Assembly (NCBI GenBank): GCA_963725805.1
Contig: CAVSAF010000023.1
Span: forward strand, 88,201-152,200
Direction of reading: 5' to 3'
Source of the DNA: an uncultured Chloroflexia bacterium
GTDB lineage: Bacteria > Chloroflexota > Anaerolineae > Anaerolineales > Villigracilaceae
DNA: 64,000 nucleotides
The translations under genes were made by a program, and so were the position numbers. Of this stretch, positions 25,761 to 42,463 are shown one piece after another. How positions within the stretch are numbered: the stretch's first letter is position 1; each line of letters opens with the position of its first letter. The notes under the pieces were generated by a model. That model was not told the DNA's origin and made no database searches. It worked only from the letters and a program-made list of their open reading frames with translations.

Positions 25761-27199
25761 ATAAACGCATTTTCATCATCGCCGACCACGGCCTGGCGCT
25801 GATCTACTTCCTTCAATCCGATGTCATCCCCACCCTGCTTAAAGCCGGCGTGGAAGTGATCATGTTTACGGATGATGATGCTCGCCAGGCCATCCAGGAA
25901 CGTTTCCAACAGCCCGGCCTGACTTTCGAGGGCCTGCGGCTGGACCAGTGCGAACGCTATTTCCAGTCGACGCAGCCGTTTCTGCAGCGCTGCCTGGTCA
26001 TGTTGCGCTGGGCGGGCGGTTCCAAACGCATCAATACCACCGCCATGGACGGCAATTACCATCTCCAGGCGATGAGTTTTACGGGGCGCGGCCGGTTTGC
26101 CCTGCCGTTCCTGCGCCTCTTGATCTGGCTGATGCGCCGTTCGCACCTCCTGCGCAACCTTGTCGTCCGTGCTCAGAATCGCTTCACTCCCAATATCTAT
26201 GCCGACCTTTTTGAGAAATACCAGCCTGAACTGGTCGTTGCCCGCACACCTGGATGGCGCATGGATCGCTACATCCTGCGCGAAGCTGCTTCCAAAGGAG
26301 TCCGGACAGTGGCAGCCATTGCCGGTTGGGATAACCCATCATCCTATAATCTTAGTGGCGCACCGATGGACCATATCACCTGCTGGTCTGAAATCCAGAA
26401 AGAAGAGCTGGTGCTGGGTTCGGACTGGGACCCGCAGCGGGTTAACATATCCGGCATTCCGGCATATGATGGTTACTTCCTGCGTTCCTGGTTGATCCCG
26501 CGCGACGAATACTTCCGCCAGCATGGTCTCGATCCGCAGCGTAAACTGCTTTCTTATGCTTGCAGCTTCGAGACCCTCCATCCCAACTTCCCGAACATGG
26601 CTGCCATCATCGAACTGGTCAATCATAACGAGTTGACCGAACCTTGCCAGTTGCTGATCCGTTTCCATCCCAATCACTTCATCAAAGGCTCGCGCTTCGA
26701 GGCGGAGCGGCTGCGTACGGTTGAATATGTGAAGGACATGCCGCTCGTCCACATCGTGGAACCGGTTTCTTTGGGCGGCGGGCTGGGACATTACTCGGGT
26801 GAAGATATGCCCGAAAAAGCCTCCATGATGGCTTACACGGATGTCTTCCTGACGGTCTATTCCACCATGGTGGTCGAGACAGCCATCCACGATAAACCCA
26901 TCATCAGCGTAACCATTGATACACCCGGCGGATGGAATATGAAGGATGTCTATTCCCTGCCCTTGACCGCCATTGGCGATTGGCCCACCCACCAGCGCTT
27001 TCGCCAGTCGGGAGCAGGGCGCGTGGCTGCCAATAAGGAGCAGGTGCGCCAACTGGTCAATCATTATCTCAAGGATCCGGCTGCCGATACCGAGAAACGC
27101 CGTAAGTTCATCCAGGATGAATGCACCTTTACGGATGGCAGCGCCGGAAGACGAACGGGTTTGTACCTGCTCAACCTGCTGGATGGTTCCAAACTATGA
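25757..27199 (+). CDS. GT-B-fold protein of unknown specificity, distantly similar to the KpsC/S-like proteins
   Basis: Rossmann-like N-terminus KRIFIIADHGLALIYF. ...LLSYACSFETLHPNF...CQLLIRFHPNHF...YTDVFLTVYSTMVVETAIHDKPIISV has the same HP-motif layout as 17637..19229 and 38305..39942. ATGA overlaps at both ends. Confidence 0.3.
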   Translation: MNKRIFIIADHGLALIYFLQSDVIPTLLKAGVEVIMFTDDDARQAIQERFQQPGLTFEGLRLDQCERYFQSTQPFLQRCLVMLRWAGGSKRINTTAMDGNYHLQAMSFTGRGRFALPFLRLLIWLMRRSHLLRNLVVRAQNRFTPNIYADLFEKYQPELVVARTPGWRMDRYILREAASKGVRTVAAIAGWDNPSSYNLSGAPMDHITCWSEIQKEELVLGSDWDPQRVNISGIPAYDGYFLRSWLIPRDEYFRQHGLDPQRKLLSYACSFETLHPNFPNMAAIIELVNHNELTEPCQLLIRFHPNHFIKGSRFEAERLRTVEYVKDMPLVHIVEPVSLGGGLGHYSGEDMPEKASMMAYTDVFLTVYSTMVVETAIHDKPIISVTIDTPGGWNMKDVYSLPLTAIGDWPTHQRFRQSGAGRVAANKEQVRQLVNHYLKDPAADTEKRRKFIQDECTFTDGSAGRRTGLYLLNLLDGSKL

Positions 27200-27951
27200 T
27201 AACTCCCCAGGTCCTCGCCTTGATTCCTGCACGCGGAGGCTCGAAGGGCATCCCTCGTAAGAACATTCGTGCCTTTGCCGGTCATCCTTTGATTGCTTAC
27301 AGTATTGCCGCGGCTTTGCAGGCAGAGACAGTCACACGTGTGGTGGTTTCCACTGATGATCCGGAAATTGCCGAAGTTGCCCGTGCCTGGGGGGCAGAGA
27401 TACCCTTTATGCGTCCGGCAGGGCTGGCTGCAGACCGAACCACGGATCTGCCGGTCTTCCAGCATGCCCTGACCAGGCTGGCGGAGCACGAAAACTATCA
27501 CCCGGAGATCGTCCTGCACTTGCACGCCACCAGTCCGGTCCGGCCGCCGGGCTTTGTCGATCAGGCGGTCCGCCTGCTGCAAGAACATCCGCAGGCTGAA
27601 TGTGTGCGCAGTGTGGTTGCGCCTGGACAGAACCCCTATAAAATGTGGCGGATCGATCCTCAGTCTGGACATATGCTCCCGCTGCTGACCATTCCGGGAA
27701 TAGCTGAGCCTTATAATACCCCCCGCCAGCAGCTCCCTGCGGTATATCTGCAGACAGGCCACGTGAATGCCATCCGCCCGGCAGCCATTCTGGCCGGTTC
27801 GATGACCGGCCAGGTGATCCTGCCAATCATCATAAATGCCAGGTATGAAGTGGACCTGGATACTCCGGCAGATTGGGAACGCGGTGAATGGCTGGTCACT
27901 AATAATCCCCTGAATATGGTTCATCCGAGGAGAAAAGATGAGCAAGCCTGA
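27196..27951 (+). CDS. Acylneuraminate (CMP-ulosonic acid) cytidylyltransferase-like, copy 1
   Basis: LALIPARGGSKGIPRKNIRAFAGHPLIAYSI is the CTP_transf_3/NeuA-KdsB P-loop. Start ATG 27196 overlaps the previous stop (ATGA). Confidence 0.8.
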   Translation: MITPQVLALIPARGGSKGIPRKNIRAFAGHPLIAYSIAAALQAETVTRVVVSTDDPEIAEVARAWGAEIPFMRPAGLAADRTTDLPVFQHALTRLAEHENYHPEIVLHLHATSPVRPPGFVDQAVRLLQEHPQAECVRSVVAPGQNPYKMWRIDPQSGHMLPLLTIPGIAEPYNTPRQQLPAVYLQTGHVNAIRPAAILAGSMTGQVILPIIINARYEVDLDTPADWERGEWLVTNNPLNMVHPRRKDEQA

Positions 27952-29188
27952 GGTACTCGCCCTGATTCCGGCGCGTGGTGGCTCGAAGGGGATTCCGCGC
28001 AAGAACATCCGTCCATTTGCAGGTCAGCCCCTGATCGCCTTCAGTATTGCCGCGGGATTGCAGGCTCATTCAGTGACACGCGTGATCGTTACGACGGATG
28101 ATCAGGAAATTGCCCGAGTGGCGCGTGACTGCGGCGCTGAGACGCCATTCCTGCGACCGCCCGGGCTTGCCCAGGACCGCACGCTCGACCTGCCGGTCTT
28201 CCAGCATGCCCTGAATTGGCTGGCTCAACACGAAGATTATCATCCTGAAGTCGTCGTACACCTGCGCCCGACCACTCCCATTCGTCCTCCGGACCTGGTG
28301 GATCGCGCAGTAGCCCTGCTGCTGGCCCATCCCGAAGCGGACTCCGTGCGCGGGATAACGCCTGCTCATCAAAACCCGTTCAAGATGTGGCTTATGGATG
28401 GGGATGACAGGCCTATACGTCCATTGACAACCGTCTCGGGGATCGACGAGCCGTATAACTCGCCCCGTCAGGTTTTACCAACGGCCTACACCCACACTGG
28501 CCTGATCGACATCATTCGCCCGGCGACCATTCTGGACCAAAATTCGATGAGTGGCAGGACAATTTTGCCAATCCTGTTCGATCCGGCTTACGATGCAGAC
28601 CTGGATACTCCTCAGGATTGGAAACGTGCCGAACAAAGAATCCTTCACGATCCGCTCAAGATGGTCTGGCCGGGGAAACCACCCCGTGGCATGCCTGAAA
28701 CCGTCCGCCTGCTGATCCTTGATTTTGATGGCGTCCTGACCGATAACCGCGTCTGGGTGGACCAGGATGGGCGTGAGATGGTCGCAGCCAACCGCAGTGA
28801 CAGTCTGGGCATCCGGCAGCTTCAACAGGCTGGAGTGGAAACGGTTGTGATTTCCTTGGAAACCAACCCGGTTGTTGCGGCGCGTTGCCGGAAGATGAAC
28901 GTCCCCTTCATCCAGGGGGAAAGTGACAAGGCGGCCGCATTGAACAGGCTTCTCAGCGAGCGCAATCTGGATGCCAGCCAGGCTGTGTATCTGGGGAACG
29001 ATGTCAACGACCTGCCGTGCTTCCCGTTGGTGGGCTGGGCGGTGGCAGTCGCCGATGCCATGCACGAGGTGGCACGCCAGGCCGATTTTGTCTTGACTCG
29101 ACCCGGAGGTCACGCGGCAGTGCGTGAGTTATGCGATATGCTTATGGAGAAGTTGTCAAACAAACCGGGCTCTCAACACAGGGCCTGA
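27938..29188 (+). CDS. Bifunctional NeuA-like cytidylyltransferase fused to KdsC-type HAD phosphatase, copy 2
   Basis: The N-terminal 250 aa are a tandem paralogue of 27196..27951 (LALIPARGGSKGIPRKNIRPFAGQPLIAFSI). The C-terminal domain (about 28700..29188) is LLILDFDGVLTDNRVWVDQDGREMVAANRSDSLGIRQL...YLGNDVNDL, carrying the DxD HAD motif I and the KdsC/Kdn-9-P phosphatase pattern. Confidence 0.8.
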   Translation: MSKPEVLALIPARGGSKGIPRKNIRPFAGQPLIAFSIAAGLQAHSVTRVIVTTDDQEIARVARDCGAETPFLRPPGLAQDRTLDLPVFQHALNWLAQHEDYHPEVVVHLRPTTPIRPPDLVDRAVALLLAHPEADSVRGITPAHQNPFKMWLMDGDDRPIRPLTTVSGIDEPYNSPRQVLPTAYTHTGLIDIIRPATILDQNSMSGRTILPILFDPAYDADLDTPQDWKRAEQRILHDPLKMVWPGKPPRGMPETVRLLILDFDGVLTDNRVWVDQDGREMVAANRSDSLGIRQLQQAGVETVVISLETNPVVAARCRKMNVPFIQGESDKAAALNRLLSERNLDASQAVYLGNDVNDLPCFPLVGWAVAVADAMHEVARQADFVLTRPGGHAAVRELCDMLMEKLSNKPGSQHRA

Positions 29189-29274: not shown

Positions 29275-30162
29275 ATGCTGTCAGAAATTAAGATCGGAAA
29301 TTCTTTGGTTGGTGAAGGAAATCCTTGTTATGTTATTGCCGAGATCGGCATCAACCACAACGGAAATATTGACCTCGCCAAAAAACTCATCGATGCGGCT
29401 GTGGCAGCCAGGTGCAATGCCGTCAAATTCCAGAAGCGCACAATTAATATTGTCTATTCTGCTGAGGAATTGGCGCGCCCGCGTGAAAGCCCCTTCGGTA
29501 CTACGAACGGGGATTTAAAGTACGGCCTGGAATTCGATCAGGAAGATTACGCCGAGATCGATCGTTATTGCCGGCAGAACAATATTGCCTGGCTGGCCTC
29601 CTGCTGGGATGAACGATCGGTTGATTTTATCGAGCAATTTAATGTGCCCTGCTACAAGGTCGCCTCGGCCTCCCTCACCGATGACGGCCTGCTGCGTCAC
29701 ACCCGCAGTAAAGGCCGCCCGATCCTGGTGTCCACTGGCATGAGTACGCTGGGGCAGATCGACCATGCTGTGGATGTGCTGGGAAAAGAACAGCTGGTGA
29801 TCATGCACACCACCAGCACTTACCCTGCCTACTATGAAGAATTGAATTTGCGCGTAATCCCCATGTTGAAACAGCGCTACGGCTTGCCAATCGGATATTC
29901 CGGACACGAAACCGGGCTTTCCACAACCATTGCTTCTGTAGCCATGGGCGCTTGCGTGGTGGAGCGCCATATCACTCTTGACCGCGCCATGTGGGGCTCC
30001 GACCAGGCTGCCTCCGTCGAGCCACAGGGTTTCACTCACCTGGTCCGTGATATCCGCCTGGTCGAGACGGCCATGGGCGACGGCGTCAAACGTGTGGTTG
30101 AACGCGAAGTGCCGATCATGCAGAAACTGCGCCGGGTCGATTCAAAGGGTAACGGCGCATAA
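29275..30162 (+). CDS. NeuB-family (PEP-condensing ulosonic acid synthase) protein lacking the SAF domain, copy a
   Basis: CYVIAEIGINHNGNIDLAKKLIDAAVAARCNAVKFQKR...YKVASASLTD...ILVSTGMST...YPAYYEELNL...GYSGHETG...VERHITLDR. It ends at 295 aa with no antifreeze-like SAF domain. Confidence 0.75.
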   Translation: MLSEIKIGNSLVGEGNPCYVIAEIGINHNGNIDLAKKLIDAAVAARCNAVKFQKRTINIVYSAEELARPRESPFGTTNGDLKYGLEFDQEDYAEIDRYCRQNNIAWLASCWDERSVDFIEQFNVPCYKVASASLTDDGLLRHTRSKGRPILVSTGMSTLGQIDHAVDVLGKEQLVIMHTTSTYPAYYEELNLRVIPMLKQRYGLPIGYSGHETGLSTTIASVAMGACVVERHITLDRAMWGSDQAASVEPQGFTHLVRDIRLVETAMGDGVKRVVEREVPIMQKLRRVDSKGNGA

Positions 30163-30292: not shown

Positions 30293-31138
30293 ATGACCCA
30301 TATTGGTATCATGCAAGGCCGCCTTGTTCCCCCAACGGATAACCGTATCCAGTGTTTTCCGCGTGAGCGCTGGGCGGATGAGTTTGCGCTTGCCAGCCAG
30401 GCTGGACTGGACTGCATCGAATGGATCTATGACCTGTATGGGGCCGACATCAACCCGCTTGCAACAGATACCGGCATTAAGAAAATCAAGGATCTTTCCC
30501 AGCAACATCAGGTCAAAATCCTTTCCATTTGTGCAGATTATTTTATGGACAGGCCACTTGTACGAGCCAGCCAGGCGGAACTGGATGACCGTCTCAATAC
30601 GTTCTACTGGTTATTGGAGCGCGGCCGCTTGATTGGCATCAACCGGATGGTGATACCCTTCGTGGATGCATCCCGCATCGACACCCAGGCTGAATTTGAC
30701 GGGGTGGTGCTTCTCCTGAAACGCATTCTCCGGAAGGTCGGGAAGACTGGAATTGAAATTCATCTGGAGACATCCCTGAATCCGCTTCGTTTTGCCGGGC
30801 TTCTGGTGCAAATACCTCATCCGTTGCTCAAGGCCAACTACGATTCCGGGAACAGTTCTTCCCTGGGGTATGACCCGCGCGAGGAATTTACTGCCTATGG
30901 GGACCGGGTGGGCAGCGTCCACATTAAGGACCGCCTCAAGGGTGCAAGCACGGTGCCGCTCGGGAAGGGCGACGCGGATTTCCCGGCCCTGGCAGAAAGC
31001 CTGAGGAAGGTTGCCTATGCTGGGGATTTCATTTTGCAGGTGGCACGCGGAACCAGCGGAGACGAAGTGGCTTGGGCCAGGCAGAACCGTAATTTTGTTT
31101 TGAAGCATTTTGTTCATAATGATGGTGTACAACTCTGA
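30293..31138 (+). CDS. Xylose-isomerase-like TIM-barrel sugar(-phosphate) isomerase/epimerase
   Basis: IGIMQGRLVPP...CFPRERWADEFALASQAGLDCIEW...VHIKDR...PLGKGDADF is AP_endonuc_2-like. The ATG at 30293 follows GGAG; alternative ATG at 30281 (ORF track 30215). Confidence 0.6.
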   Translation: MTHIGIMQGRLVPPTDNRIQCFPRERWADEFALASQAGLDCIEWIYDLYGADINPLATDTGIKKIKDLSQQHQVKILSICADYFMDRPLVRASQAELDDRLNTFYWLLERGRLIGINRMVIPFVDASRIDTQAEFDGVVLLLKRILRKVGKTGIEIHLETSLNPLRFAGLLVQIPHPLLKANYDSGNSSSLGYDPREEFTAYGDRVGSVHIKDRLKGASTVPLGKGDADFPALAESLRKVAYAGDFILQVARGTSGDEVAWARQNRNFVLKHFVHNDGVQL

Positions 31139-31150: not shown

Positions 31151-32191
31151 ATGAAAATATTGATCATGGGTCTCGGCGGTATTGGACAGCGTCACCTGCG
31201 TAACCTGCGCAGGTTGCAGGGTGATGATCTGGAAATCATCGCATATGATCCCCGCCCCAATCCACCGGTTCTCACTGACCAGCTTAAAATTGAAGAGGGG
31301 CTGAGCCTGGAGAAAAAGTTCGGCCTGGCAATCTTCCCGGATGCCGAACAAGCTTTGGCCCAAAAACCACAGGCCGTCTTTGTGTGCAACCCCACCAGCC
31401 TGCATATCCCGGCGTCTATCCGGGCGGCTCAGCAAGGCTGCGCCTTGTTCATCGAGAAACCGCTCTCGCACAACCTGGAAAATGTGGACGAATTGATCAG
31501 CCTGGTGGAAAGCCGAGGCCTGACAGCCGCGGTTGGCTACCAGATGCGTTTCCACCCCTGCCTGCAGCGCCTGCATGCCCTGGTTCAGGAGAAAAAAGTC
31601 GGCCGGATTCTATCTGTTCGGGCGGTGGTTGGAGAGTACCTGCCTGGCTGGCACACCTACGAGGATTACCGTCAGAGTTATGCTTCGAGAACGGACCTGG
31701 GAGGAGGTGTGATCCTTACGCAAATCCACGAGCTGGATTATCTTTACTGGCTGTTTGGCCTGCCCCGGCGCATATTTGCGCTGGGCGGGCATCTGAGCAG
31801 CCTGGAAGTTGATGTGGAAGACACCGCCGATATTCTGATGGAGTGCATGCTGGATGGTCATCCGATTCCTGTCAGCCTGCATCAAGATTACATACAAAAT
31901 CCGCCCAGTCGTTCCTGTGAGATCGTCGGGGATGCCGGGAAGATCCTGGTTGATCTTCGTGCGTTGACGGTGGATGTTTTCGATGGCCGGGGTAATCGGA
32001 TCGAGACCACTTCTTACGAAGGATTCCAGCGCAACCAGTTATTCCTGGACGAATTGAAGTATTTTCTGGATGGCATGCAGGGAAAACCGACTCCGCTGGT
32101 CAATCTGCGAGACGGGGCGCAAAGCTTGCGCATGGCCCTCGCTGCGAAGGAATCCCTGGTCACCGAGAAGGTTGTTGAAATTGAAAGGTAA
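31151..32191 (+). CDS. Gfo/Idh/MocA-family NAD(P)-dependent oxidoreductase
   Basis: MKILIMGLGGIGQRHLRNL Rossmann N-terminus, ...VFVCNPTSLH...FIEKPL... Confidence 0.75.
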   Translation: MKILIMGLGGIGQRHLRNLRRLQGDDLEIIAYDPRPNPPVLTDQLKIEEGLSLEKKFGLAIFPDAEQALAQKPQAVFVCNPTSLHIPASIRAAQQGCALFIEKPLSHNLENVDELISLVESRGLTAAVGYQMRFHPCLQRLHALVQEKKVGRILSVRAVVGEYLPGWHTYEDYRQSYASRTDLGGGVILTQIHELDYLYWLFGLPRRIFALGGHLSSLEVDVEDTADILMECMLDGHPIPVSLHQDYIQNPPSRSCEIVGDAGKILVDLRALTVDVFDGRGNRIETTSYEGFQRNQLFLDELKYFLDGMQGKPTPLVNLRDGAQSLRMALAAKESLVTEKVVEIER

Positions 32192-33051: not shown

Positions 33052-33631
33052 GTGATTAGTCCTATGAAACTTGAAGAGGAATTGAAGATCCATACACGGA
33101 TCATGGAACAGACCGTTAAAGAGAGCTCACAGGTCATTCACGCGATTGCCGGATGCCTGGTGGAATGCTTTCGCAAAGGCAACAAAGTGATGGTCTGTGG
33201 CAACGGCGGCAGTGCGGCCGATTCTACAGCATATGGTGGCCGAATTTGTCAACCGCTTTCGCATGGACCGGGCTGCCTTGCCCGCCATTGCGCTGACGGT
33301 GGACACATCCACCCTGACAGCCATTGGGAACGATGCATCCTTCGAATTCACCTTCTCGCGCCAGGTGGAAGCCCTGGCCAGAGCCGGCGATGTTTTGATC
33401 GCGTTCAGCACGAGCGGTGGTTCGCCCAACGTTCTGAAGGCACTGGACGTGGCGCAGGCGCGTGAAGTCAAGATAATTGGCTTTACAGGCGAAAAAGGAA
33501 ATCCCACGATGACTATGAAATGTGATTTCTGCCTGGTCGTCCCCTCCGCAGATACGCCCCGGGTCCAGGAAGTTCACGAATTTGTCTGGCATGTCATCTG
33601 CGGTATGGTGGAACAGGCATTGTTCGAATAG
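33052..33631 (+). pseudogene. GmhA-like SIS-domain sugar-phosphate isomerase, interrupted by a +1 frame disruption near 33226
   Basis: Frame 1 reads ...KVMVCGNGGSAADS then nonsense (TAYGGRICQ...). Frame 2 continues QHMVAEFVNRFRMDRAALPAIALTVDTSTLTAIGNDASFEFTFSRQVEALARAGDVLIAFSTSGGSPNVLKAL...RVQEVHEF, collinear with E. coli GmhA ([21 protein letters not shown]...). Removing one base at GAT TCT [A] CAG CAT restores the frame. Confidence 0.75.
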
Positions 33632-36414: not shown

Positions 36415-38304
36415 ATGCCTGAGATCAAAATCGGTAATCGTTTAATAGGAGACGGCCATCCCACCTATATCATTGCAGAGATTGGCGTTAACCATAATGG
36501 TATTCCCCAACTGGCATTTGAGTTGATCGATATTGCCGTGGATGCGGGTGCGGATGCTGTAAAATTCCAGAAACGCAATTTAAAGACCCTTTATCCTCAA
36601 AAATACCTGGATAATGTCAATGCGGGCGAGAAGAGTCTGCGTTATCTGCTCCCTATCCTGCAGCAGGTGGAGTTGCCGGAAAGTACATATCACGAGATCG
36701 CCGCGTACTGCAAGAAAAAGGGCATAACTTTCTTGTGCTCGCCCTTTGATAAAGAAAGCGCCGACTTTTTGGAAACCCTCGGCGTACCGGCTTTCAAGGT
36801 GGCTTCTGCGGACTTGACGAACCTGCCCCTGCTTGACCACCTGGTCAAGAAAAAGAAACCCCTTATCCTGTCAACCGGCATGTCCCGTCCCGACGAGGTT
36901 GATTTTACGGTTGGATATCTGAAAGAGCGCCAGGCGCAGTTTGCTCTGTTGCACTGCAACAGCACCTATCCGGCTGCTTTTGAAGATATTAATCTGCGCT
37001 ACATGGATCAATTGCGTAAATACGCTGTGCCGGTGGGATATTCTGGTCACGAACGCGGCATTGCGGTTTCCACTGTTGCGGCCGCGCTGGGCGCCAATAT
37101 CATCGAACGGCATATCACCCTTGACCGCGCCATGGACGGTCCTGACCATGCTGCCAGCCTGGAGCCACAGGGATTCAAGAAAATGGTCAGGGATATCCAC
37201 CTTGTTTCTTTGGCGCTGGGAACCGGAGAAGAGAAATTTTTCTCGCGCGGCGAGATCCTTAATCGGGAGACCCTGGCAAAGAGTCTCGTTGCGACCCGGA
37301 ATATCGAACCAGGCGAGGTTATTACGGTTGAGATGGTATCTGTAAAAGGTCCAGGCCTGGGTCTTTCCCCGCAGCGCTACCCGGAATTACTTGGCAAGCG
37401 CGCAGCCCGGGCCATTGAAGCCGACGAGCCCTTCCTGGAGAGCGATCTCGGAATTCAACATGAATTGGACATGGAGCATATATTGCCCATGCAGTGGGGT
37501 TTTACCGTGCGCTTCCGCGATTACGAAGACTTGATGGTTTATAACCCCCGCTTCCTGGAATTTCATTTTACCGATGCCGACCTGAATGATGAATATCCAG
37601 GCGTTGATTACGATATGCCGCTGGTTGTGCACGCCCCGGAGTTTTGGGAGCGCACGCTGGTGGACCTGTGCGCCCGGGATAAAAAACGGCGCGTCGATTC
37701 CGTCGCCCTGATCCAGAAATCCATCGACCGGACGCGTGCCATGGCGAAGCACTTTAAAGGCATACCCAAGGTGGTCGTCCATTCCGGGGGCATGACCATA
37801 GACCAGCCCATTCAGGATAATCGGCCCCTGTACGAGAACCTCGGTCGCTCGGTTGAGCAGATTGATTCTGAAGGCGTGGAGATCTTACTTGAGAACCTGC
37901 CGCCTCATCCCTGGTACTTTGGCGGCCAGTGGGTCACGAACGCTTTCATGGATGCCAATGAAATCCGTGAATTCATTGTCCCGCGCAAGCTGAACATCTG
38001 TTTCGATACCAGCCATTCGAAACTTTATTGCAATTGGGCTCACCTGGATTTTTACGAGCAAGTGAAGATCCTCCTGCCCTTTACCCACCATTTGCACATC
38101 TCTGACGGCTCCGGTTTGGATGGGGAAGGTTTGCAAATTGGCGAAGGTAATATTGACTGGGTGCATTTCTTCCGAGTCACAAAGGATTACCACGGCACCA
38201 TGGTTCCCGAAATCTGGCGGGGTCACCAGCATGCCGGGCAGGGCTTCATCCAGGCCATCCAGCGTCTCTCGGAGGCGTTTTTCAAGGCCCAGGAAGAAAA
38301 ATGA
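36415..38304 (+). CDS. Three-domain fusion: NeuB-like synthase + SAF domain + xylose-isomerase-like TIM barrel
   Basis: aa 1-285: TYIIAEIGVNHNGIPQLAFELIDIAVDAGADAVKFQKR...GYSGHERG...IERHITLDRAMDGPDHAASLEP. SAF-like segment: LVATRNIEPGEVITVEMVSVKGPGLGLSP. From aa ~355: ...LVVHAP...VVVHSGG...ILLENLP...HHLHISDGSGLDGEGLQIGEGNIDW, an AP_endonuc_2-type TIM barrel. Confidence 0.7.
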   Translation: MPEIKIGNRLIGDGHPTYIIAEIGVNHNGIPQLAFELIDIAVDAGADAVKFQKRNLKTLYPQKYLDNVNAGEKSLRYLLPILQQVELPESTYHEIAAYCKKKGITFLCSPFDKESADFLETLGVPAFKVASADLTNLPLLDHLVKKKKPLILSTGMSRPDEVDFTVGYLKERQAQFALLHCNSTYPAAFEDINLRYMDQLRKYAVPVGYSGHERGIAVSTVAAALGANIIERHITLDRAMDGPDHAASLEPQGFKKMVRDIHLVSLALGTGEEKFFSRGEILNRETLAKSLVATRNIEPGEVITVEMVSVKGPGLGLSPQRYPELLGKRAARAIEADEPFLESDLGIQHELDMEHILPMQWGFTVRFRDYEDLMVYNPRFLEFHFTDADLNDEYPGVDYDMPLVVHAPEFWERTLVDLCARDKKRRVDSVALIQKSIDRTRAMAKHFKGIPKVVVHSGGMTIDQPIQDNRPLYENLGRSVEQIDSEGVEILLENLPPHPWYFGGQWVTNAFMDANEIREFIVPRKLNICFDTSHSKLYCNWAHLDFYEQVKILLPFTHHLHISDGSGLDGEGLQIGEGNIDWVHFFRVTKDYHGTMVPEIWRGHQHAGQGFIQAIQRLSEAFFKAQEEK

Positions 38305-39942
38305 ATGAATGCTGAGTCAAAAGTGAGTTTGCCTGGTTTCGTGCAGCCGATTCTTCGACGCCTCCAGACGGCTTCAAAGAGCCTGATGAATGACTGGCAG
38401 GTCATCCGCATGGCACGGCAGGTGGCAAGTCATGCCAGGGGAAACCGGGAAAGGCTGCCGGTGGTATTTTTTAATGCATCCACGCGTATCCGCGGAAACA
38501 GCCAGAACGCGGCTTTTTCATTGCTGGCATCCTGGGTGGTGCGGCTGGCTGGAGTAAGGGTCGTCCATTTTATCTGCTGGGCTGGGATGAGTCGTTGCGT
38601 TCTGGGTACGGATCAGGATGACCCTGAAAAGGCCATGCCGTGTTCAATGTGCATTCGCCAGTCAAAGGTGAACACCACCGCTGCGGAGGTGCGCCCGTTT
38701 TCCTATCAACAGGATAACCAACTGGCTGCGGCCCTGCAGTCCCTGAGTTTGAATGAACTCCTGCAGTACGAACACCCCTTTCCGGATTCTGCCGGGTCCA
38801 TCCCGCTGGGCAGGCTGGTCATGCCTTCCTTGCGGTGGAGATTGCGTCTCCAGACCCTGACCGATGACCAGGCGACCCGCTTCATCTGCCGCGAGTTCAT
38901 GCTCTCAGCCTGGAATGTGGCTCGTAAATTCAGTTACTTGTTGGAAAATGTCAAACCTCAGGCTGCCGTCCTGTTCAATGGGATGCATTTCCCTGAAGCC
39001 ACCGCAGCCTGGCTGTGCCGCCAGCGCGGTGTGCGCGTTATCACCCACGAGTCGGGCTTCCAGCCATTCAGCGGATATTTCGTGGAAGGCGACGTCACTG
39101 CTTATCCCATCACGATCCCTGACGTGGACCTCACCCCGGAACAGAACACCCGCCTGGACGTGGACCTGCAGAAACGCACGCAGGGAGACTTCAGCATGGC
39201 TGGTATTCAGTTCTGGAAGGCGATGCACAGTCTGCCGGATGAGCTTGTGCGAAAAGCTGCCGGGTTCAAGCAGGTGGCGGCGGTCTTCACCAACGTCATC
39301 TTTGATACCACCCAGTTGCACGCCAACGTGATCTTCAAAGACATGTTCACCTGGCTGGATGCCCTGCTGGAGGTTTTTAAGGCTCACCCGGAGACGCTCT
39401 TCGTGGTGCGCGCCCATCCCGACGAGGCCCGCCCGGGCAAACGCAGTCGCGAGTCTGTCGAGATGTGGTTTCAGCAGAAGGCCGCCTTCCTCCCCAATGC
39501 GGCCTTTATCCCGCCTCAGGAGCGCATCAGTTCGTATGAACTGATCAGGCTGTCCAAATTCGTGCTGACGTATAACTCGCAGATCGGACTGGAGTCTTTG
39601 TTGATGGGTATTCCTGCCTTGGGCGCGGGCCAGGCCCCATTCGTGGGATACGGAACGGTCTATTTCGAACGGGATCGGGAAGCTTATCTACGCAGGTTGG
39701 AATCCTTTTTATCGGCAACCCGGCTGGAGGTCCCGCAGGAGGCAGTCAGGCGAACCCGGCGCTTCATGTACTATCGTTATTATCGCTTTTCCCTGCCGTT
39801 TGGCGAATATATTGAGTCCACTGCCCCGACTGGATATGTGCGCCTGAAAAAATTTTCCCGGCGCTCTTTGGAGAAATCGCCCACCGCCCGTGCCTTGCAG
39901 AACGGCATTCTGCAAGATGGAAATTTCCTTCTGATGGAATGA
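38305..39942 (+). CDS. KpsC/KpsS (Capsule_synth)-like GT-B protein with a Cys4 insert; candidate ulosonic acid transferase
   Basis: Homologous to 17637..19229 (VAAVFTNVIFDTTQL...ETLFVVRAHPDE...SYELIRLSKFVLTYNSQIGLESLLMGIPALGAG). It has a unique C-x6-C-x14-C-x2-C at aa 91-116 (38575..38652). Confidence 0.45.
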   Translation: MNAESKVSLPGFVQPILRRLQTASKSLMNDWQVIRMARQVASHARGNRERLPVVFFNASTRIRGNSQNAAFSLLASWVVRLAGVRVVHFICWAGMSRCVLGTDQDDPEKAMPCSMCIRQSKVNTTAAEVRPFSYQQDNQLAAALQSLSLNELLQYEHPFPDSAGSIPLGRLVMPSLRWRLRLQTLTDDQATRFICREFMLSAWNVARKFSYLLENVKPQAAVLFNGMHFPEATAAWLCRQRGVRVITHESGFQPFSGYFVEGDVTAYPITIPDVDLTPEQNTRLDVDLQKRTQGDFSMAGIQFWKAMHSLPDELVRKAAGFKQVAAVFTNVIFDTTQLHANVIFKDMFTWLDALLEVFKAHPETLFVVRAHPDEARPGKRSRESVEMWFQQKAAFLPNAAFIPPQERISSYELIRLSKFVLTYNSQIGLESLLMGIPALGAGQAPFVGYGTVYFERDREAYLRRLESFLSATRLEVPQEAVRRTRRFMYYRYYRFSLPFGEYIESTAPTGYVRLKKFSRRSLEKSPTARALQNGILQDGNFLLME

Positions 39943-40024: not shown

Positions 40025-41723
40025 TTGAAACGGAATCCAGCCATGTTCCTGTTTGCTATCGTCCTCAGCTTCCTTTACGGTGTGATTGCCGTCAGCCAAA
40101 TTCTGGGGATCCTGGGGATCTATAAAGCCTTCCTTGTCATACCCCTGGCGCTGCTCCTGGGAGGCACGGTCTTCTACCTTTTTATACGGATCGGCAAGCC
40201 ATTCAACGATTCTTTTATCAAACCCTCCAAACTTCCAAGAAACCTTTGGTTGCCTTTGGCGTTTCTGGCCAGTGGATTGGCCTTGTATATCTTGTTGGTC
40301 TTCTTTCCCCTGGCGCATTGGCCATATTCACCCATTTCCAATGTGCTGCCTTGGGATGCCGGCCTGTACCATTTCCCAAAAGCTGCGGAGATGATATCCA
40401 CCGGGTCCGCCTGGGACCTTAGTATTTCTTATGGGGAATATCCTTTTGGCTACGAGTCTCTGGTTGCATTCGCACTTTCCCTCAACCACCCCGGCTTCTT
40501 GATCGGGTCTGTCCATGCTTTGCTATCCTTATTCCTCCTGCTTTCCATGGCGCTTTTGGTTGTGCGCTATACCCGGTTGCCCCTGGCTCCCGTTATCCTC
40601 TTGATCAGCCTTCTTTTCCTGGGATATCAATTGGCCCGGGGATTTGACAGCAATATCTGGTGGATCTTTTGGTCGCAAATCACTTTAATAGGGAAAAATG
40701 ACCTATTCCTGGGCGCTTCGCTCCTGGCAGTCCTTTTATTCACCCCGTTCTCCCGGGAAGGTCCATTCTTTCCATTTGGACTTGCACTGGCGAGTGCCCT
40801 GGCCATCAGCGTCAAGCCGAATGCGGCTCTGGTGATTTTGTTCGCCTGGCTGATAATGTTTTTCTTTATCTGGCGGTCAGGCCAGTTTGGCAGGTACCGT
40901 TGGCAGCTTATCGGCAGTGCAATTGCCATTTTGCCGGGGGCATTGTGGATTTATAGGAACCTGGTTTTACAGGGAGTCCTTTTCAGCCAGGCTTCCCTGG
41001 TCGCCTCAAAATGGAGCATTGCCAGCAACCTGACCAATCCGTTTTTTTATCATTACATTCCTAGAAACCTTTACTATGTTTTGGGCATCATTGCCGTCTC
41101 TGTTGTAGTCTCAATATTCCGACCGGCTCTGCGGTTTTATTGCCTGGCTGCTCTTGTGCTGTTGGTCACTTTTGCATTTACTCCTGCCTCGGCTTTCTTC
41201 CGCGATACCGGGGTGCCTGCCCAAATCGCCTGGCGGTTTGCGATTGCATTGCTGGCCTATCTTTTCGTGCTCCTCCTGGCGCTTTTTGAGCCAATCATCA
41301 TTCCGGTATATGCCTGGATTTCCAGGAAGGTGGTCCTATCCATCCTTCTTGCAGTCGGGGTGCTTGCCTTCGGCGGGTGGGGGGTATGGTCGCAGAGAGA
41401 TCTATTGAGTACCCATGCTCGGAATGCGATCGTTCTGCACGACCAATTTCTGCACACCTGTCGGCGTGGATGGTTATTACAGTGCCTACGATTATGTCCA
41501 GAAAAATGTTCATAACTCGGTGGTCATTACTGAAAATGGTTTACCGTACTACCTGTATGACGCAGGATTTACCAATACTGTCACCCGCTCCCGTCCGGCT
41601 GACTATGTTGTCTACCTTAAAGACCCGGGTGGTTATCCTGGTGCGCTTGACCAGCCGGATTGGTCGGCGGTTTGGCAATTGGTCTATAAAGACTCACAAG
41701 GTAGAGTCTATCAACGAAAATGA
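40025..41723 (+). pseudogene. Polytopic GT-C-like membrane protein whose C-terminal soluble domain is in the +1 frame (disruption between 41409 and 41515)
   Basis: ORF 40025..41515 ends in an implausible Cys/Arg-rich tail (LHTCRRGWLLQCLRLCPEKCS). The overlapping +1 frame, open from 41409, reads a well-formed domain PVGVDGYYSAYDYVQKNVHNSVVITENGLPYYLYDAGFTNTV...WQLVYKDSQGRVYQRK ending at 41723. Confidence 0.6.
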
Positions 41724-41794
41724 AATCCGGAGCGTGCTTGATGGGCAGTGCCAAGGTCTCGCCCTCAGGGTCGATTCGGTATAATGAGTGATCT

Positions 41795-42463
41795 ATGACA
41801 AAACTCGCAGCCCTTGTTCCAATGCGCCACCATTCGCAGCGGGTTCCCGGCAAGAACTTCCGCTCGCTGGCGGGTAAGCCACTCTACCAGCACATTATCG
41901 AGACTCTGCTGTCAGTTCCGGAGATTTCCACCGTCGTTGTGGATACTGATTCTGACCCGATTATGGACGGTCTTGGGCGGGATTTTCCCCAGGTGATTAT
42001 TCTGCCACGCCCGGAGAATCTTAGAGCAGACGCCATCTCCATGAATGAGATCCTTCTCTACGATACCTCCCGGGTCGAAGCTGATTTTTACCTCCAAACC
42101 CACAGCACCAATCCGCTGCTGCGCCCGGAGACCATCTCGAAAGCCGCCCAGACTTTTCTGGCCAATTATCCTGTGTATGACTCGCTCTTCTCGGTGACGC
42201 GGCTTCATACCCGTTTATATGACCAGGCCGGAAATGCCCTCAACCACGATCCCAACGTCCTGCTCCAGACTCAGGACCTGCCGCCGGTCTTTGAAGAGAA
42301 CTCCTGCATCTATATTTTTACCCGCGAAAACCTGGAAAGACGCCGCAACCGTCTGGGTGAGCACCCGTTCATGTACGAAATGGACCCTGGCGAAGCCTGG
42401 GATATTGACGAAGAGTTGGATTTTGCCATCACCGGCTTTCTGATGCAGCACCGTATGAAATGA
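41795..42463 (+). CDS. NeuA/KdsB-family cytidylyltransferase, copy 3 (divergent)
   Basis: AALVPMRHHSQRVPGKNFRSLAGKPLYQHII...VVVDTDSD is a CTP_transf_3-type P-loop with His/Gln substitutions relative to copies 1 and 2. Confidence 0.7.
   Translation: MTKLAALVPMRHHSQRVPGKNFRSLAGKPLYQHIIETLLSVPEISTVVVDTDSDPIMDGLGRDFPQVIILPRPENLRADAISMNEILLYDTSRVEADFYLQTHSTNPLLRPETISKAAQTFLANYPVYDSLFSVTRLHTRLYDQAGNALNHDPNVLLQTQDLPPVFEENSCIYIFTRENLERRRNRLGEHPFMYEMDPGEAWDIDEELDFAITGFLMQHRMK

What the first reader, a model, noticed from the sequence alone, without database searches (positions are those of the whole stretch)
27196..42463. Triplicated ulosonic-acid toolkit (3 NeuB-like, 3 NeuA-like) without the canonical sialic, legionaminic or pseudaminic precursor genes
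Within 15 kb there are three PEP-condensing NeuB-family synthases (29275, 35515, 36415) and three CTP_transf_3 cytidylyltransferases (27196, 27938, 41795). There is also a KdsC-type phosphatase domain, a GmhA-like SIS isomerase, two xylose-isomerase-like TIM barrels, a Gfo/Idh/MocA oxidoreductase and an SDR. I found no NeuC-type hydrolysing 2-epimerase, no DegT/PseC aminotransferase, no PseB/PglF-type dehydratase and no N-acetyltransferase of the Pse/Leg pathways. The phosphatase implies a sugar-phosphate plus PEP route (Kdn-9-P/Kdo-8-P logic). The isomerase/oxidoreductase set suggests the acceptor sugar-phosphate is remodelled first. That would be up to three different, possibly undescribed 3-deoxy-ulosonic acids made in one locus.
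Basis: partly seen in the sequence, partly recalled or inferred. Interest (0 to 1): 0.85.

Follow-up and report, generated by a model that had tools for sequence, protein, structure and literature searches.

The report
Amino-free ulosonic-acid gene cassettes in Anaerolineales
A soil or sludge Chloroflexi bacterium carries a cell-surface sugar locus with three sialic-acid-type synthases but no amino-sugar genes; the gene cassettes involved are found in many phyla, have never been characterised, and probably make Kdn-like or larger acidic sugars not yet described.

Summary
Three NeuB-family synthases, three CTP_transf_3 cytidylyltransferases, a KdsC-type phosphatase, a GmhA-like isomerase, two xylose-isomerase-like TIM barrels, a Gfo/Idh/MocA enzyme and an SDR lie in one + strand block. 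No aminotransferase, NeuC, PseB/LegB or NeuD/PglD homologue occurs anywhere in the 64 kb.

Corrections: the second TIM barrel is fused to NeuB3; the isomerase gene carries a 1-nt frameshift; NeuB1 and NeuB2 lack the SAF domain.

The host is an Anaerolineales bacterium. Dozens of related genomes share the layout, but the baseline is two synthases. NeuB1 is always present. The slot before a KpsC/TagB-like transferase holds NeuB2, the NeuB3-TIM fusion, or both.

NeuB1-TIM-Gfo-SDR is a cassette found across phyla and apparently uncharacterised. The NeuB-SAF-TIM fusion forms at least 77 clusters at 50% identity. None of the NeuBs reaches the NeuB/LegI or PseI model cut-offs, and all lack the SAF arginine (R314).

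The Gfo/SDR/extra-NeuA trio matches the ElaA/ElaC/ElaB (PtmF/PtmA/LegF) pattern. That points to tailoring after condensation rather than precursor remodelling.

Verdict: a new variant of a known kind, with the products unknown.

The parts
27196..27951 (+). NeuA1, a CMP-ulosonate synthetase-like cytidylyltransferase (251 aa from 27196; the ORF opens at 27121)
   Evidence: CTP_transf_3 E 1.4e-21. PseF model 157.7 bits, below the 205.7 cut-off. Best solved relatives are NeuA 9ftb, 6ifd and 1eyr. 62% identical to NeuA2.
27938..29188 (+). NeuA2 fused to a KdsC-type HAD phosphatase (416 aa)
   Evidence: CTP_transf_3 plus Hydrolase_3. KdsC-phosphatase subfamily 111.4 bits, above the 106.95 cut-off; KDN-9-P phosphatase model 81.7 bits, below 180. 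HAD motifs intact.
29275..30162 (+). NeuB1, a SAF-less NeuB-family PEP-condensing synthase (295 aa)
   Evidence: NeuB E 2.8e-78. NeuB_NnaB model 261 bits, below 399.65. Catalytic and metal residues conserved, with E134 replaced by S. Orthologues 65-87% identical across phyla, next to TIM1.
30293..31138 (+). TIM1, a xylose-isomerase-like TIM barrel with a ketose-3-epimerase fold (281 aa; the ORF opens at 30215)
   Evidence: AP_endonuc_2 E 1.2e-19. AF2 model pLDDT 80, pTM 0.82. Foldseek top hits are UlaE 3cqh/3cqi/3cqj (TM 0.74-0.82), then tagatose/allulose 3-epimerases. Three UlaE metal ligands are kept, but the fourth (E251) is an invariant Gln in 22 family members.
31151..32191 (+). Gfo/Idh/MocA NAD(P) oxidoreductase (346 aa), of the ElaA/PtmF type
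   Evidence: Pfam. Best NCBIfam hit is IolG, 120 bits, far below cut-off. Best PDB hit is 3EZY, the same nearest structure reported for ElaA (PMC13656337).
32197..33027 (+). SDR1, a short-chain reductase with a long insertion between the catalytic Ser and Tyr (276 aa), of the ElaC/PtmA type
   Evidence: adh_short matched in two stretches. 16-aa insertion between S158 and Y187 relative to SDR2. ElaC has an elongated loop at the same place (PMC13656337). The most conserved cassette member, 51-91% identical.
33052..33631 (+). GmhA-like SIS sugar-phosphate isomerase, frameshifted by a 1-nt insertion near 33227
   Evidence: SIS_2 hits in two frames. tblastn against the intact L001 orthologue. Sequence comparison. 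The intact orthologue scores 192.9 on GmhA TIGR00441, just below the 209.45 cut-off.
33634..35430 (+). Polytopic membrane protein (598 aa; the L001 orthologue carries DUF6311); variable member of the block
   Evidence: No Pfam hit here. PF19830 is on record for the L001 orthologue. Present in many but not all related loci.
35515..36393 (+). NeuB2, a second SAF-less NeuB-family synthase (292 aa); an optional paralogue
   Evidence: NeuB E 2.7e-83. NeuB_NnaB model 270 bits, below 399.65. 58% identical to NeuB1. Found only in Chloroflexi loci; sometimes the sole synthase in front of Cap2.
36415..38304 (+). NeuB3, a NeuB-SAF-TIM barrel fusion (629 aa)
   Evidence: NeuB 7.9e-85, SAF 9.6e-12, AP_endonuc_2 5.4e-26. 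NeuB_NnaB model 347 bits, below 399.65. R314 position is Gly. The fused TIM keeps the E-D-H-E tetrad. More than 120 clusters at 74-90% identity in Anaerolineales. At least 77 clusters at 50% identity share the architecture.
38305..39942 (+). Cap2, a KpsC/KpsS- and TagB-like GT-B protein; candidate ulosonic-acid transferase (545 aa)
   Evidence: Capsule_synth 26.8 bits, above the cut-off of 20. Weak hit to the BFO_1060 NulO-transferase domain (PMC5420450). Always directly downstream of NeuB2 or NeuB3.
40025..41515 (+). Polytopic membrane protein (496 aa), function unknown
   Evidence: No family hit. An orthologue is present in L004.
41795..42463 (+). NeuA3, a divergent CMP-ulosonate synthetase-like protein (222 aa)
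   Evidence: CTP_transf_3 E 9.1e-30 over the full length. Best solved relative is PpNeuA 9t4z, the Prymnesium CMP-Kdn synthetase, then mouse CMAS (PMC12934254). Co-conserved with NeuB3 and Cap2.
17577..19229 (+).
   Evidence: Capsule_synth 26.8 bits. 25% identical to Cap2. Weak BFO_1060 hit.
25757..27199 (+). TagB/TagF-like GT-B protein directly upstream of NeuA1; candidate transferase
   Evidence: Glyphos_transf 22.6 bits. BFO_1060 domain 47 bits. Conserved upstream of NeuA1 in most Chloroflexi loci.
47584..48396 (+). MptE-like (Maf/DUF115-type) protein; a possible further CMP-sugar transferase
   Evidence: PF01973 36.5 bits. Weak WaaZ Kdo-transferase hit. Conserved with NeuA3, 2-Hacid_dh and SDR2 in L001, L002 and L026.

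Best explanation
The region is the sugar-precursor core of a roughly 50-kb, single-strand cell-envelope glycopolymer locus in an Anaerolineales (Chloroflexota) bacterium. It encodes at least two pathways for CMP-activated 3-deoxy-2-ulosonic acids that carry no amino groups.

Pathway 1 (27196-33631) is the Chloroflexi flavour of a cassette found across phyla. Every step below is inferred; none is shown.
- A GmhA-like isomerase supplies an aldose phosphate.
- SAF-less NeuB1 condenses it with PEP.
- The KdsC-type phosphatase domain removes the terminal phosphate.
- NeuA1 or NeuA2 makes the CMP-sugar.
- The Gfo/Idh/MocA dehydrogenase oxidises a side-chain hydroxyl and the long-loop SDR reduces it again, as ElaA and ElaC do.
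- TIM1 carries out one-base enolisation chemistry next to that carbonyl, either epimerisation or dehydration.

Pathway 2 (35515-42463) uses NeuB2 and/or the NeuB3-SAF-TIM fusion. In the fusion the TIM domain is inferred to turn a ketose into the aldose that NeuB3 condenses, without a phosphate. NeuA3 then activates the acid and the KpsC/TagB-like Cap2 transfers it.

Shown here: domain content, conservation, catalytic residues, and the absence of amino-sugar genes. Inferred: substrates, order of steps, and products.
For: - Domains and thresholds.
- Host and wider locus: homologues are named Anaerolineales. The window also holds two Wzm/Wzt-type ABC pairs, many glycosyltransferases, LtaS-like proteins and rmlABCD.
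- Conserved order in 32 Chloroflexi loci: NeuB1 31, TIM1 32, Gfo 30, SDR1 31, SIS 29, HAD 27, NeuA 27, TPP 1, DegT 1.
- Phosphate route: a KdsC-like HAD directly follows the NeuB1 orthologue in 16 of 19 non-Chloroflexi loci.
- Alternative front ends: NeuB1+HAD or the NeuB-SAF-TIM fusion precedes the same TIM1-Gfo-SDR1 block in different phyla.
- Slot before Cap2: filled by NeuB2, NeuB3 or both.
- Catalytic residues: intact in all three NeuBs. R314 is missing, and E134 is S, S and D in NeuB1, NeuB2 and NeuB3 (residue roles from PMC8208679).
- Ela/Ptm analogy: PMC13656337 and PMC4481668. SDR1 has a loop insertion. The Gfo-SDR1-NeuA1 triad sits next to the fusion in L002 and L005.
- TIM1: ketose-3-epimerase fold with the second Glu replaced by Gln. 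The fused TIM keeps E-D-H-E.
- NeuA3: closest solved relative is a CMP-Kdn synthetase.
Against: - No biochemical data exist for any member.
- The isomerase gene is frameshifted in this window. Pathway 1 may therefore be impaired here, or the isomerase may be dispensable.
- The order 'condense, then tailor' rests on analogy. TIM1's nearest structures act on ketose phosphates, which also fits remodelling before condensation.
- Pairing each NeuA with a particular NeuB is based on co-occurrence only. L004 has NeuA3 but no NeuA1 type; L005 has both.
- Precursor genes for amino sugars could lie elsewhere in the genome, which I could not inspect.
- Related cassettes in other phyla often do carry a DegT aminotransferase and a TPP enzyme, so the family as a whole is not strictly amino-free.
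Confidence: 0.55

Rival explanations
1. Three distinct, undescribed ulosonic acids are made. The TIM barrels, the Gfo enzyme, the SDR and the SIS isomerase remodel the sugar phosphate before NeuB condensation.
For: - TIM1's closest structures are ketose(-phosphate) 3-epimerases.
- The isomerase is GmhA-like.
- The three NeuBs are old paralogues, 46-58% identical, each conserved as its own orthologue group.
- There are three NeuA-like genes and three or four candidate transferases.
Against: - NeuB2 and NeuB3 replace each other in the same slot across genomes.
- Gfo + SDR + an extra NeuA is the Ela/Ptm arrangement, thought to act on the CMP-sugar (PMC13656337).
- The triad occurs without TIM1 or SIS in L002 and L005.
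- TIM1 lacks the second catalytic Glu of true 3-epimerases.
Confidence: 0.2
2. Plain Kdn. The locus simply makes CMP-Kdn from mannose-6-phosphate, as Bacteroides thetaiotaomicron and Prymnesium do. The paralogues are redundant, and the oxidoreductases serve other sugars of the polymer.
For: - NeuB + KdsC-type phosphatase + NeuA is all that Kdn needs (PMC6200933).
- NeuA3's nearest solved relative is a CMP-Kdn synthetase.
- Kdn is the second most abundant nonulosonic acid in granular-sludge EPS (PMC10483923).
Against: - TIM1, Gfo, SDR1 and the isomerase are linked to NeuB1 in nearly all of the 73 loci, across phyla. That argues they work on the same sugar.
- The KDN-9-P phosphatase equivalog is not reached (81.7 bits against 180).
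- A GmhA-like isomerase is not needed for Man-6-P.
Confidence: 0.15
3. An ordinary legionaminic, pseudaminic or neuraminic acid locus whose precursor genes (dehydratase, aminotransferase, acetyltransferase, NeuC-type epimerase) lie elsewhere in the genome.
For: - The best HMM for all three NeuBs is NeuB_NnaB.
- The Gfo/SDR/NeuA trio is typical of Leg clusters (PMC4481668).
- I could not read the rest of the genome.
Against: - All three NeuBs score below the equivalog cut-offs.
- R314 is absent.
- A phosphatase is fused to NeuA2.
- There is no precursor gene in 64 kb or in 31 of 32 related Chloroflexi loci.
- Identity to NmNeuB, CjPseI and BsSpsE is only 27-34%.
Confidence: 0.07

Closest known systems
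Kdn pathway of Bacteroides thetaiotaomicron (Kdn-9-P synthase with Kdn-9-P phosphatase) and of Prymnesium parvum (PMC6200933, PMC12934254)
   Same: A NeuB-family synthase is paired with a KdsC-type C0 HAD phosphatase and a CMP-synthetase. No amino-sugar genes are involved. NeuA3's nearest solved relative is the Prymnesium CMP-Kdn synthetase.
   Different: - This locus adds a tightly linked TIM barrel, a Gfo enzyme, a long-loop SDR and a GmhA-like isomerase.
- The phosphatase is fused to NeuA.
- The KDN-9-P phosphatase equivalog cut-off is not reached.
- A second synthase type is fused to a TIM barrel and has no phosphatase.
ElaA/ElaB/ElaC of Acinetobacter baumannii KL49, corresponding to PtmF/LegF/PtmA of Campylobacter, Vibrio and Plesiomonas Leg clusters (PMC13656337, PMC4481668); also Aci and EpaAB (PMC5595891, PMC12053666)
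   Same: A Gfo/Idh/MocA oxidoreductase, an SDR with an elongated loop and an additional CTP_transf_3 enzyme sit next to a NeuB gene. The logic is oxidation and re-reduction of a side-chain carbon on the CMP-sugar.
   Different: - Those systems act on 5,7-diacetamido acids made by lga/leg genes, which are absent here.
- A TIM barrel is an extra member here.
- I could not align the window proteins directly with Ela sequences.
Leptospira interrogans nonulosonic acid cluster (PMC3438082)
   Same: One cluster holds several NulO synthases and several CMP-synthetases. A phosphatase fusion implies a phosphorylated route. There is a SAF-less NeuB homologue (6ncs is NeuB1's best PDB hit).
   Different: Leptospira also encodes aminotransferases, NeuC and NeuD, and makes di-N-acetylated acids and Neu5Ac. 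Its phosphatase is fused to NeuB, not to NeuA.
KpsC/KpsS beta-Kdo transferases and the Tannerella forsythia NulO transferases Tanf_01245/BFO_1060 (PMC5420450)
   Same: Cap1, Cap2 and the 25757 protein pass or approach these models. Cap2 always follows the synthase gene.
   Different: The scores are weak (27-47 bits; the BFO_1060 cut-off is 200). Donor and acceptor are unknown.
Teichulosonic acids (Kdn-containing wall polymers of Streptomyces and other actinobacteria; from my own knowledge, with the term confirmed in the literature search)
   Same: A bacterium presumed to be monoderm (lineage knowledge, not tested here) that would display a non-amino ulosonic acid in an ABC-exported wall polymer.
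   Different: The Chloroflexi polymer has not been studied chemically.

Membership tests
N-acetylneuraminate/legionaminate synthase (NeuB_NnaB, TIGR03569) | Score at or above the curated equivalog cut-off (399.65 bits) | tested here: not met
   261.1, 269.9 and 347.2 bits for NeuB1, NeuB2 and NeuB3.
N-acetylneuraminate/legionaminate synthase (NeuB_NnaB, TIGR03569) | TIM-barrel catalytic and metal residues (E25, K53, Q55, K129, S132, S154, Y186, S213, H215, E234, H236, D247 in N. meningitidis numbering) | tested here: met
   All are conserved in the three copies. E134 is S, S and D.
N-acetylneuraminate/legionaminate synthase (NeuB_NnaB, TIGR03569) | C-terminal SAF domain contributing Arg314 to the neighbouring active site | tested here: not met
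   NeuB1 and NeuB2 have no SAF domain. NeuB3 has Gly at that position. PMC8208679 calls R314 the only conserved catalytic SAF residue.
N-acetylneuraminate/legionaminate synthase (NeuB_NnaB, TIGR03569) | Linked NeuC/LegG-type hydrolysing 2-epimerase and, for Leg, LegB/LegC/LegH | tested here: not met
   None in 64 kb. The rest of the genome was not available.
Pseudaminic acid synthase PseI (TIGR03586) | Score at or above 340.25 bits, with linked PseB/C/H/G | tested here: not met
   199.6, 236.8 and 255.8 bits. No Pse genes found.
Kdn-9-P synthase / Kdn-9-P phosphatase pathway | NeuB-family synthase adjacent to a KdsC-type C0 HAD phosphatase | tested here: met
   The HAD domain lies directly upstream of NeuB1 and passes TIGR01670. 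Adjacency is seen in 16 of 19 loci in other phyla.
Kdn-9-P synthase / Kdn-9-P phosphatase pathway | Phosphatase reaches the KDN-9-P phosphatase equivalog (NF058599, 180 bits) | tested here: not met
   81.7 bits.
Kdn-9-P synthase / Kdn-9-P phosphatase pathway | Mannose-6-phosphate is the substrate and Kdn the product | not testable with these tools
   Needs enzyme assays.
ElaABC / PtmF-PtmA-LegF CMP-nonulosonate oxidoreductase module | Adjacent Gfo/Idh/MocA, SDR and CTP_transf_3 genes in a NeuB cluster | tested here: met
   Family assignments of ElaA, ElaB and ElaC come from PMC13656337.
ElaABC / PtmF-PtmA-LegF CMP-nonulosonate oxidoreductase module | SDR with an elongated loop between the catalytic Ser and Tyr (proposed CMP pocket) | tested here: met
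   16-aa insertion between S158 and Y187.
ElaABC / PtmF-PtmA-LegF CMP-nonulosonate oxidoreductase module | Direct sequence homology to ElaA/ElaC and activity on CMP-Leg | not tested
   No entry that I could identify as ElaA or ElaC appeared among the PDB hits. The shared nearest structure, 3EZY, is only indirect evidence.
GmhA sedoheptulose-7-phosphate isomerase (TIGR00441) | Score at or above 209.45 bits and an intact reading frame | tested here: inconclusive
   The window gene is frameshifted. The intact L001 orthologue scores 192.9, just below the cut-off.
Ketose 3-epimerase (UlaE / D-tagatose 3-epimerase type) | Fold and the E-D-H-E metal/catalytic tetrad | tested here: not met
   TIM1 has the fold, but the fourth residue is an invariant Gln. 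The TIM domain fused to NeuB3 keeps all four.
KpsC/KpsS capsule beta-Kdo transferases (PF05159) | Pfam gathering score (20 bits) | tested here: met
   26.8 bits for both the 17577 and 38305 proteins. These are marginal matches.

The most novel reading that the evidence does not exclude
The NeuB1 cassette makes a ten-carbon 3-deoxy-dec-2-ulosonic acid. The GmhA-like isomerase would turn sedoheptulose-7-phosphate into D-glycero-D-manno-heptose-7-phosphate. SAF-less NeuB1 would condense this with PEP, the KdsC-type domain would dephosphorylate the product, and NeuA would activate it. Gfo, TIM1 and SDR1 would then alter the side chain.

Points in favour:
- This would give a gene-level route to the 'higher-carbon' CMP-ulosonic acids recently seen by mass spectrometry in Magnetospirillum, although those carry N-acetyl groups (bioRxiv 10.64898/2026.04.20.719630).
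- The isomerase is present in 29 of 32 Chloroflexi loci and in 8 loci from other phyla.
- No kinase, GmhB or heptose nucleotidyltransferase that could otherwise use heptose-7-phosphate is encoded in the window.

Separately, the NeuB-SAF-TIM fusion would be a phosphate-free 'isomerise, then condense' machine.
Probability: 0.17. Interest if true: 0.85.

Novelty: new variant of a known kind. Interest (0 to 1): 0.6.

Why it matters
Ulosonic acids (sialic acids, Kdn, Leg, Pse, Kdo) shape how cell surfaces are recognised. Their known bacterial routes nearly all start from amino sugars or from Man-6-P or Ara-5-P.

This locus, and the families it led to, define two large uncharacterised enzyme sets. 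One is a SAF-less NeuB with a phosphatase, a TIM barrel, a Gfo enzyme and an SDR, found in at least eight phyla or classes. The other is a NeuB-SAF-TIM fusion with at least 77 clusters at 50% identity.

Several hosts are cultured: Ectopseudomonas guguanensis JCM 18416, Panacagrimonas perspica DSM 26377 and Paraburkholderia fungorum. The products can therefore be determined directly.

Anaerolineales are abundant in soils and wastewater granules, where Kdn-type acids are prominent in the matrix but have not been assigned to producers. If the products are new stereoisomers or longer-chain acids, that would extend the known chemistry and supply new enzymes for glyco-engineering.

Tried and rejected
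- Exact-sequence look-ups of the window's NeuB3 and of P0121 found nothing on record. The source contig and the rest of the genome could not be read.
- A full phylogeny against characterised LegI, NeuB, PseI and Kdn-9-P synthases was not possible because no reference sequences were available. I used curated HMM cut-offs and an identity and residue comparison with four PDB sequences rebuilt from HMMER alignments.
- The Kenyon 2015 Aci paper and the B. thetaiotaomicron Kdn paper are not held. The families of AciC and AciD remain unknown to me.
- No entry that I could identify as ElaA or ElaC appeared among the PDB sequence-search hits.
- My first Pfam census of 147 ORFs from 14 loci in other phyla suggested that aminotransferases are not part of the cassette. 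This was wrong, because my ORF picking missed them. A direct tblastn found DegT in 22 of 41 non-Chloroflexi loci, nearly always together with a TPP enzyme. The corrected statement is that the window's flavour, not the whole family, lacks them.
- I considered an inositol-catabolism reading (IolG/IolE/IolD-like). I set it aside because the genes are embedded between NeuB, NeuA and transferases, and the scores are far below the cut-offs.
- Literature searches for the cassette itself returned nothing relevant.

Full report
**1. What is in the window**

Nearly every long ORF lies on the + strand. Pfam confirms three NeuB-family genes:
- 29275-30162, E 2.8e-78
- 35515-36393, E 2.7e-83
- 36415-38304, E 7.9e-85

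It also confirms three CTP_transf_3 genes, at 27196-27951, 27938-29188 and 41795-42463.

The 27938 gene carries a C-terminal HAD domain that passes the KdsC-phosphatase subfamily cut-off (111.4 against 106.95 bits). Its HAD motifs are intact. Between NeuB1 and NeuB2 lie five genes: a xylose-isomerase-like TIM barrel, a Gfo/Idh/MocA oxidoreductase, an SDR, a SIS gene and a polytopic membrane protein.

- The second TIM barrel is the C-terminal domain of a 629-aa NeuB-SAF-TIM fusion.
- NeuB1 and NeuB2 have no SAF domain.
- The SIS gene is broken by one inserted A near 33227, compared with an intact 192-aa orthologue.
- TIM1 probably starts at 30293.

The copies are old paralogues. NeuB1/NeuB2 are 58% identical and NeuB3 is 46% identical to both. 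NeuA1/NeuA2 are 62% identical and NeuA3 is 28-30% identical to the others.

**2. The absences hold for the whole 64 kb**

- Pfam scans of all long ORFs found no DegT aminotransferase and no NeuC-type epimerase.
- The only hexapeptide transferase (19254) resembles O-acetyltransferases. It scores 38.8 on the NeuD/PglD model, whose cut-off is 160.8.
- The SDRs at 14449 and 20022 resemble GDP-fucose synthase. They score 82-84 on the LegB model, whose cut-off is 475.
- A DegT protein taken from a related cassette finds nothing in the window (best E 0.06).

I could not read the rest of the genome. The exact-match look-ups failed.

**3. Host and setting**

The NeuB3 fusion has more than 120 cluster representatives at 74-90% identity over its full length. 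The ones that carry names are Anaerolineales or Chloroflexota MAGs.

The window as a whole is a glycopolymer locus. It contains:
- two ABC-2/ATPase exporter pairs
- many GT2, GT4 and GT-C-like proteins
- LtaS/sulfatase-like proteins
- methyl- and pyruvyl-transferases
- rmlCBAD

**4. Comparative genomics**

*Contexts of five NeuB3 orthologues.* L001 has the same order as the window. L002, L004 and L005 keep only a core:
- the NeuB3 fusion
- the KpsC-like protein (Cap2)
- NeuA3
- a sulfatase-like protein
- a 2-hydroxyacid dehydrogenase (in L002 and L004; the L005 stretch ends before that position)

L002 and L005 also have a Gfo-SDR1-NeuA1-type triad directly upstream of the fusion.

*Scan of species-representative genomes with TIM1.* The scan returned 73 loci.

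*The 32 Chloroflexi loci.* The block is almost invariant:

| Gene | Loci (of 32) |
|---|---|
| NeuB1 | 31 |
| TIM1 | 32 |
| Gfo | 30 |
| SDR1 | 31 |
| GmhA-like SIS | 29 |
| HAD | 27 |
| NeuA | 27 |
| TPP enzyme | 1 |
| DegT | 1 |

The slot just before Cap2 varies:
- NeuB2 only: L018, L019, L021, L026, L029, L045
- NeuB3 fusion only (counting loci long enough to show the slot): L006-L008, L010, L017, L024, L058, L066
- both: the window, L001, L009, L012-L016

The baseline is therefore two synthases. The triplication is one of three configurations.

*The 41 loci from other phyla.* These come from Acidobacteriota, Nitrospirota, Planctomycetota, Thermoleophilia, Myxococcota, SAR116, Devosia, Panacagrimonas, Burkholderia/Paraburkholderia and the Pseudomonas group.
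- TIM1 and SDR1 are again together (41 and 40 loci), and Gfo is present in 25.
- The synthase is one of two kinds. It is either a NeuB1-type SAF-less enzyme at 65-72% identity, with a stand-alone KdsC-like phosphatase directly after it in 16 of those 19 loci, or a NeuB-SAF-TIM fusion, present in about 20 loci.
- The two synthase types are therefore alternative front ends to the same tailoring block.
- These loci often add an acetolactate-synthase-like TPP enzyme (31 loci) and a DegT aminotransferase (22 loci, 21 of them with TPP). They rarely have a CTP_transf_3 gene (6 loci).
- The window belongs to the other flavour: isomerase plus NeuA-HAD, with no TPP enzyme and no DegT.

*Spread of the fusion architecture.* At least 77 of the best 150 clusters at 50% identity match across the whole fusion. 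Many carry an extra N-terminal stretch of about 115 aa.

**5. Sequence and structure details**

*NeuBs.* None of the three reaches the NeuB_NnaB cut-off (261, 270 and 347 bits against 399.65) or the PseI cut-off. They are 27-36% identical to N. meningitidis NeuB, C. jejuni PseI, B. subtilis SpsE and the SAF-less 6ncs protein.
- The metal and catalytic residues of the barrel are conserved.
- E134 is Ser in NeuB1 and NeuB2 and Asp in NeuB3.
- R314 is missing. NeuB1 and NeuB2 have no SAF domain, and NeuB3 has Gly at that position. A large survey found R314 to be the only conserved catalytic residue of the SAF domain (PMC8208679).

*TIM1.* The AlphaFold model has pLDDT 80 and pTM 0.82. Its nearest structures are UlaE and other ketose 3-epimerases (TM 0.74-0.82). 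In an alignment with E. coli UlaE, the ligands E155, D185 and H211 are kept. E251 is an invariant Gln in all 22 TIM1-family sequences from all phyla. The TIM domain fused to NeuB3 keeps all four. TIM1 is therefore unlikely to be a classical two-base epimerase. One-base enolisation next to a carbonyl, giving isomerisation or beta-elimination, fits better. This is inference.

*SDR1.* It has a 16-residue insertion between the catalytic Ser and Tyr.

*Other proteins.*
- The intact isomerase orthologue scores 192.9 on the GmhA model, just under the cut-off of 209.45.
- NeuA3's best solved relative is PpNeuA, the Prymnesium parvum CMP-Kdn synthetase, followed by mouse CMAS (PMC12934254).
- NeuA1's best solved relatives are bacterial NeuA enzymes.
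- Cap1 and Cap2 pass the Capsule_synth threshold. Together with the 25757 protein they weakly match the BFO_1060 domain. The Tannerella members of that family are nonulosonic-acid transferases (PMC5420450).

**6. How it most likely works**

*Shown.* The locus encodes catalytically intact NeuB-family synthases, cytidylyltransferases and a KdsC-type phosphatase. It encodes no amino-sugar genes. The synteny is conserved across phyla.

*Inferred, pathway 1.*
- An aldose phosphate is condensed with PEP by NeuB1. The aldose phosphate comes from the GmhA-like isomerase, or is Man-6-P from central metabolism.
- The product is dephosphorylated by the HAD domain.
- It is CMP-activated by NeuA1 or NeuA2.
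- It is then tailored by Gfo (oxidation), TIM1 (chemistry at the neighbouring carbon) and SDR1 (reduction).

The tailoring order follows the ElaA/ElaB/ElaC model for 8-epi-legionaminic acid. There, ElaA is a Gfo/Idh/MocA enzyme proposed to oxidise C8 of CMP-Leg. ElaC is a long-loop SDR that reduces the ketone (PMC13656337). It also follows the homologous PtmF/LegF/PtmA trio of Leg clusters (PMC4481668).

*Inferred, pathway 2.*
- NeuB2 and/or the NeuB3 fusion make a second acid.
- In the fusion, the intact TIM domain probably supplies the aldose from a ketose, with no phosphate step. Fusion of two enzymes usually indicates consecutive steps.
- NeuA3 activates the acid and Cap2 transfers it.

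Because NeuB2 and NeuB3 substitute for each other, they may give the same or very similar products.

**7. Comparison with known systems and novelty**

- The closest known logic is the Kdn pathway (synthase, phosphatase, CMP-synthetase; PMC6200933) combined with an Ela/Ptm-type redox module.
- Clusters with several synthases and a phosphatase fusion have a precedent in Leptospira (PMC3438082).
- Membership in the NeuB/LegI and PseI equivalogs fails on score, on R314 and on gene context.
- Membership in the Kdn pathway is met for architecture only.
- I found no paper describing the NeuB-TIM-Gfo-SDR cassette or the NeuB-SAF-TIM fusion.

I rate it a new variant of a known kind. The enzyme families are familiar, but the combinations and very likely the products are not.

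The most novel reading not excluded is a C10 acid made from heptose-7-phosphate. Higher-carbon CMP-ulosonic acids of unknown origin have just been reported, although those carry N-acetyl groups (bioRxiv 10.64898/2026.04.20.719630).

**8. Caveats**

- All functional statements beyond domain content are inference.
- The isomerase frameshift may reflect an assembly error, since other possibly split genes occur in the window, or it may be real decay.
- NeuA-to-NeuB pairings rest on co-occurrence only.
- Amino-sugar genes elsewhere in the genome cannot be excluded.

Noticed in passing
window 33200-33250: A single inserted A (TCT-A-CAG, against TCC-CAG in L001) splits the GmhA-like gene into two frames. 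It is either a real pseudogene or an assembly error.
   Followed up: yes
window 41795-49346: A conserved downstream module: NeuA3, a sulfatase/LtaS-like protein (42511), a 2-hydroxyacid dehydrogenase (44054; nearest models are PGDH and glyoxylate reductase, below cut-off), a second sulfatase-like protein (45067), an SDR (46776), an MptE/Maf-like protein (47584) and a GT2 (48399). The same set recurs in L001, L002 and L026. The dehydrogenase, cytidylyltransferase and phosphotransferase-like proteins together could install a phospho-linked hydroxy-acid substituent. This is untested.
   Followed up: partly
loci L046-L056, e.g. L048 (Ectopseudomonas guguanensis JCM 18416) 600-17000: Cultured Pseudomonas-group species carry the following gene set: an SDR dehydratase, DegT, an HddC-like nucleotidyltransferase, a CBS + HddA-like GHMP kinase, a NeuB-SAF-TIM fusion, FkbM methyltransferases, an acetolactate-synthase-like TPP enzyme, TIM1, Gfo, SDR1 and a pyruvyl transferase. 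No CTP_transf_3 gene lies within 10 kb. The TPP enzyme might decarboxylate the alpha-keto acid, so that the final sugar is activated through a kinase and a nucleotidyltransferase rather than through CMP. This is speculation.
   Followed up: partly
non-Chloroflexi loci L032-L078: The TPP enzyme and a 470-aa DegT aminotransferase (48-59% identical across phyla) co-occur: 21 loci have both, 10 have TPP only and 1 has DegT only. They are nearly absent from loci that have the GmhA-like isomerase or a NeuA-HAD fusion. The cassette therefore comes in two flavours.
   Followed up: yes
window 50879-52385: ORFs 50879-51469 and 51201-52385 overlap by about 270 nt in different frames. The second starts in the middle of the PMT_2 profile. 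This may be another frameshifted GT-C gene. Likewise, 14449-15471 (GDP-fucose-synthase-like) has an unmatched stretch of about 55 aa after its N-terminal Rossmann motif.
   Followed up: no
window 58001-64000 and 24001-26000: G+C drops to 0.42-0.46 over the last 6 kb, which holds a 1214-aa methyltransferase-GT2-WbsX protein and a GT4. It drops to 0.47 at 24-26 kb, against 0.51-0.57 elsewhere. This may reflect mosaic acquisition of glycosyltransferase genes.
   Followed up: no
window 15311-17640 and 53314-54904: Two separate ABC-2 permease/ATPase exporter pairs are present. The first has a Wzt_C carbohydrate-binding domain. This suggests that two different polymers, or a polymer plus a lipid-linked glycan, are exported from this one locus.
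   Followed up: no
one search hit list (P0255-P0390): Many distant NeuB-SAF-TIM fusions are 735-775 aa long, with an extra N-terminal domain of about 115 aa. I did not identify this domain.
   Followed up: no
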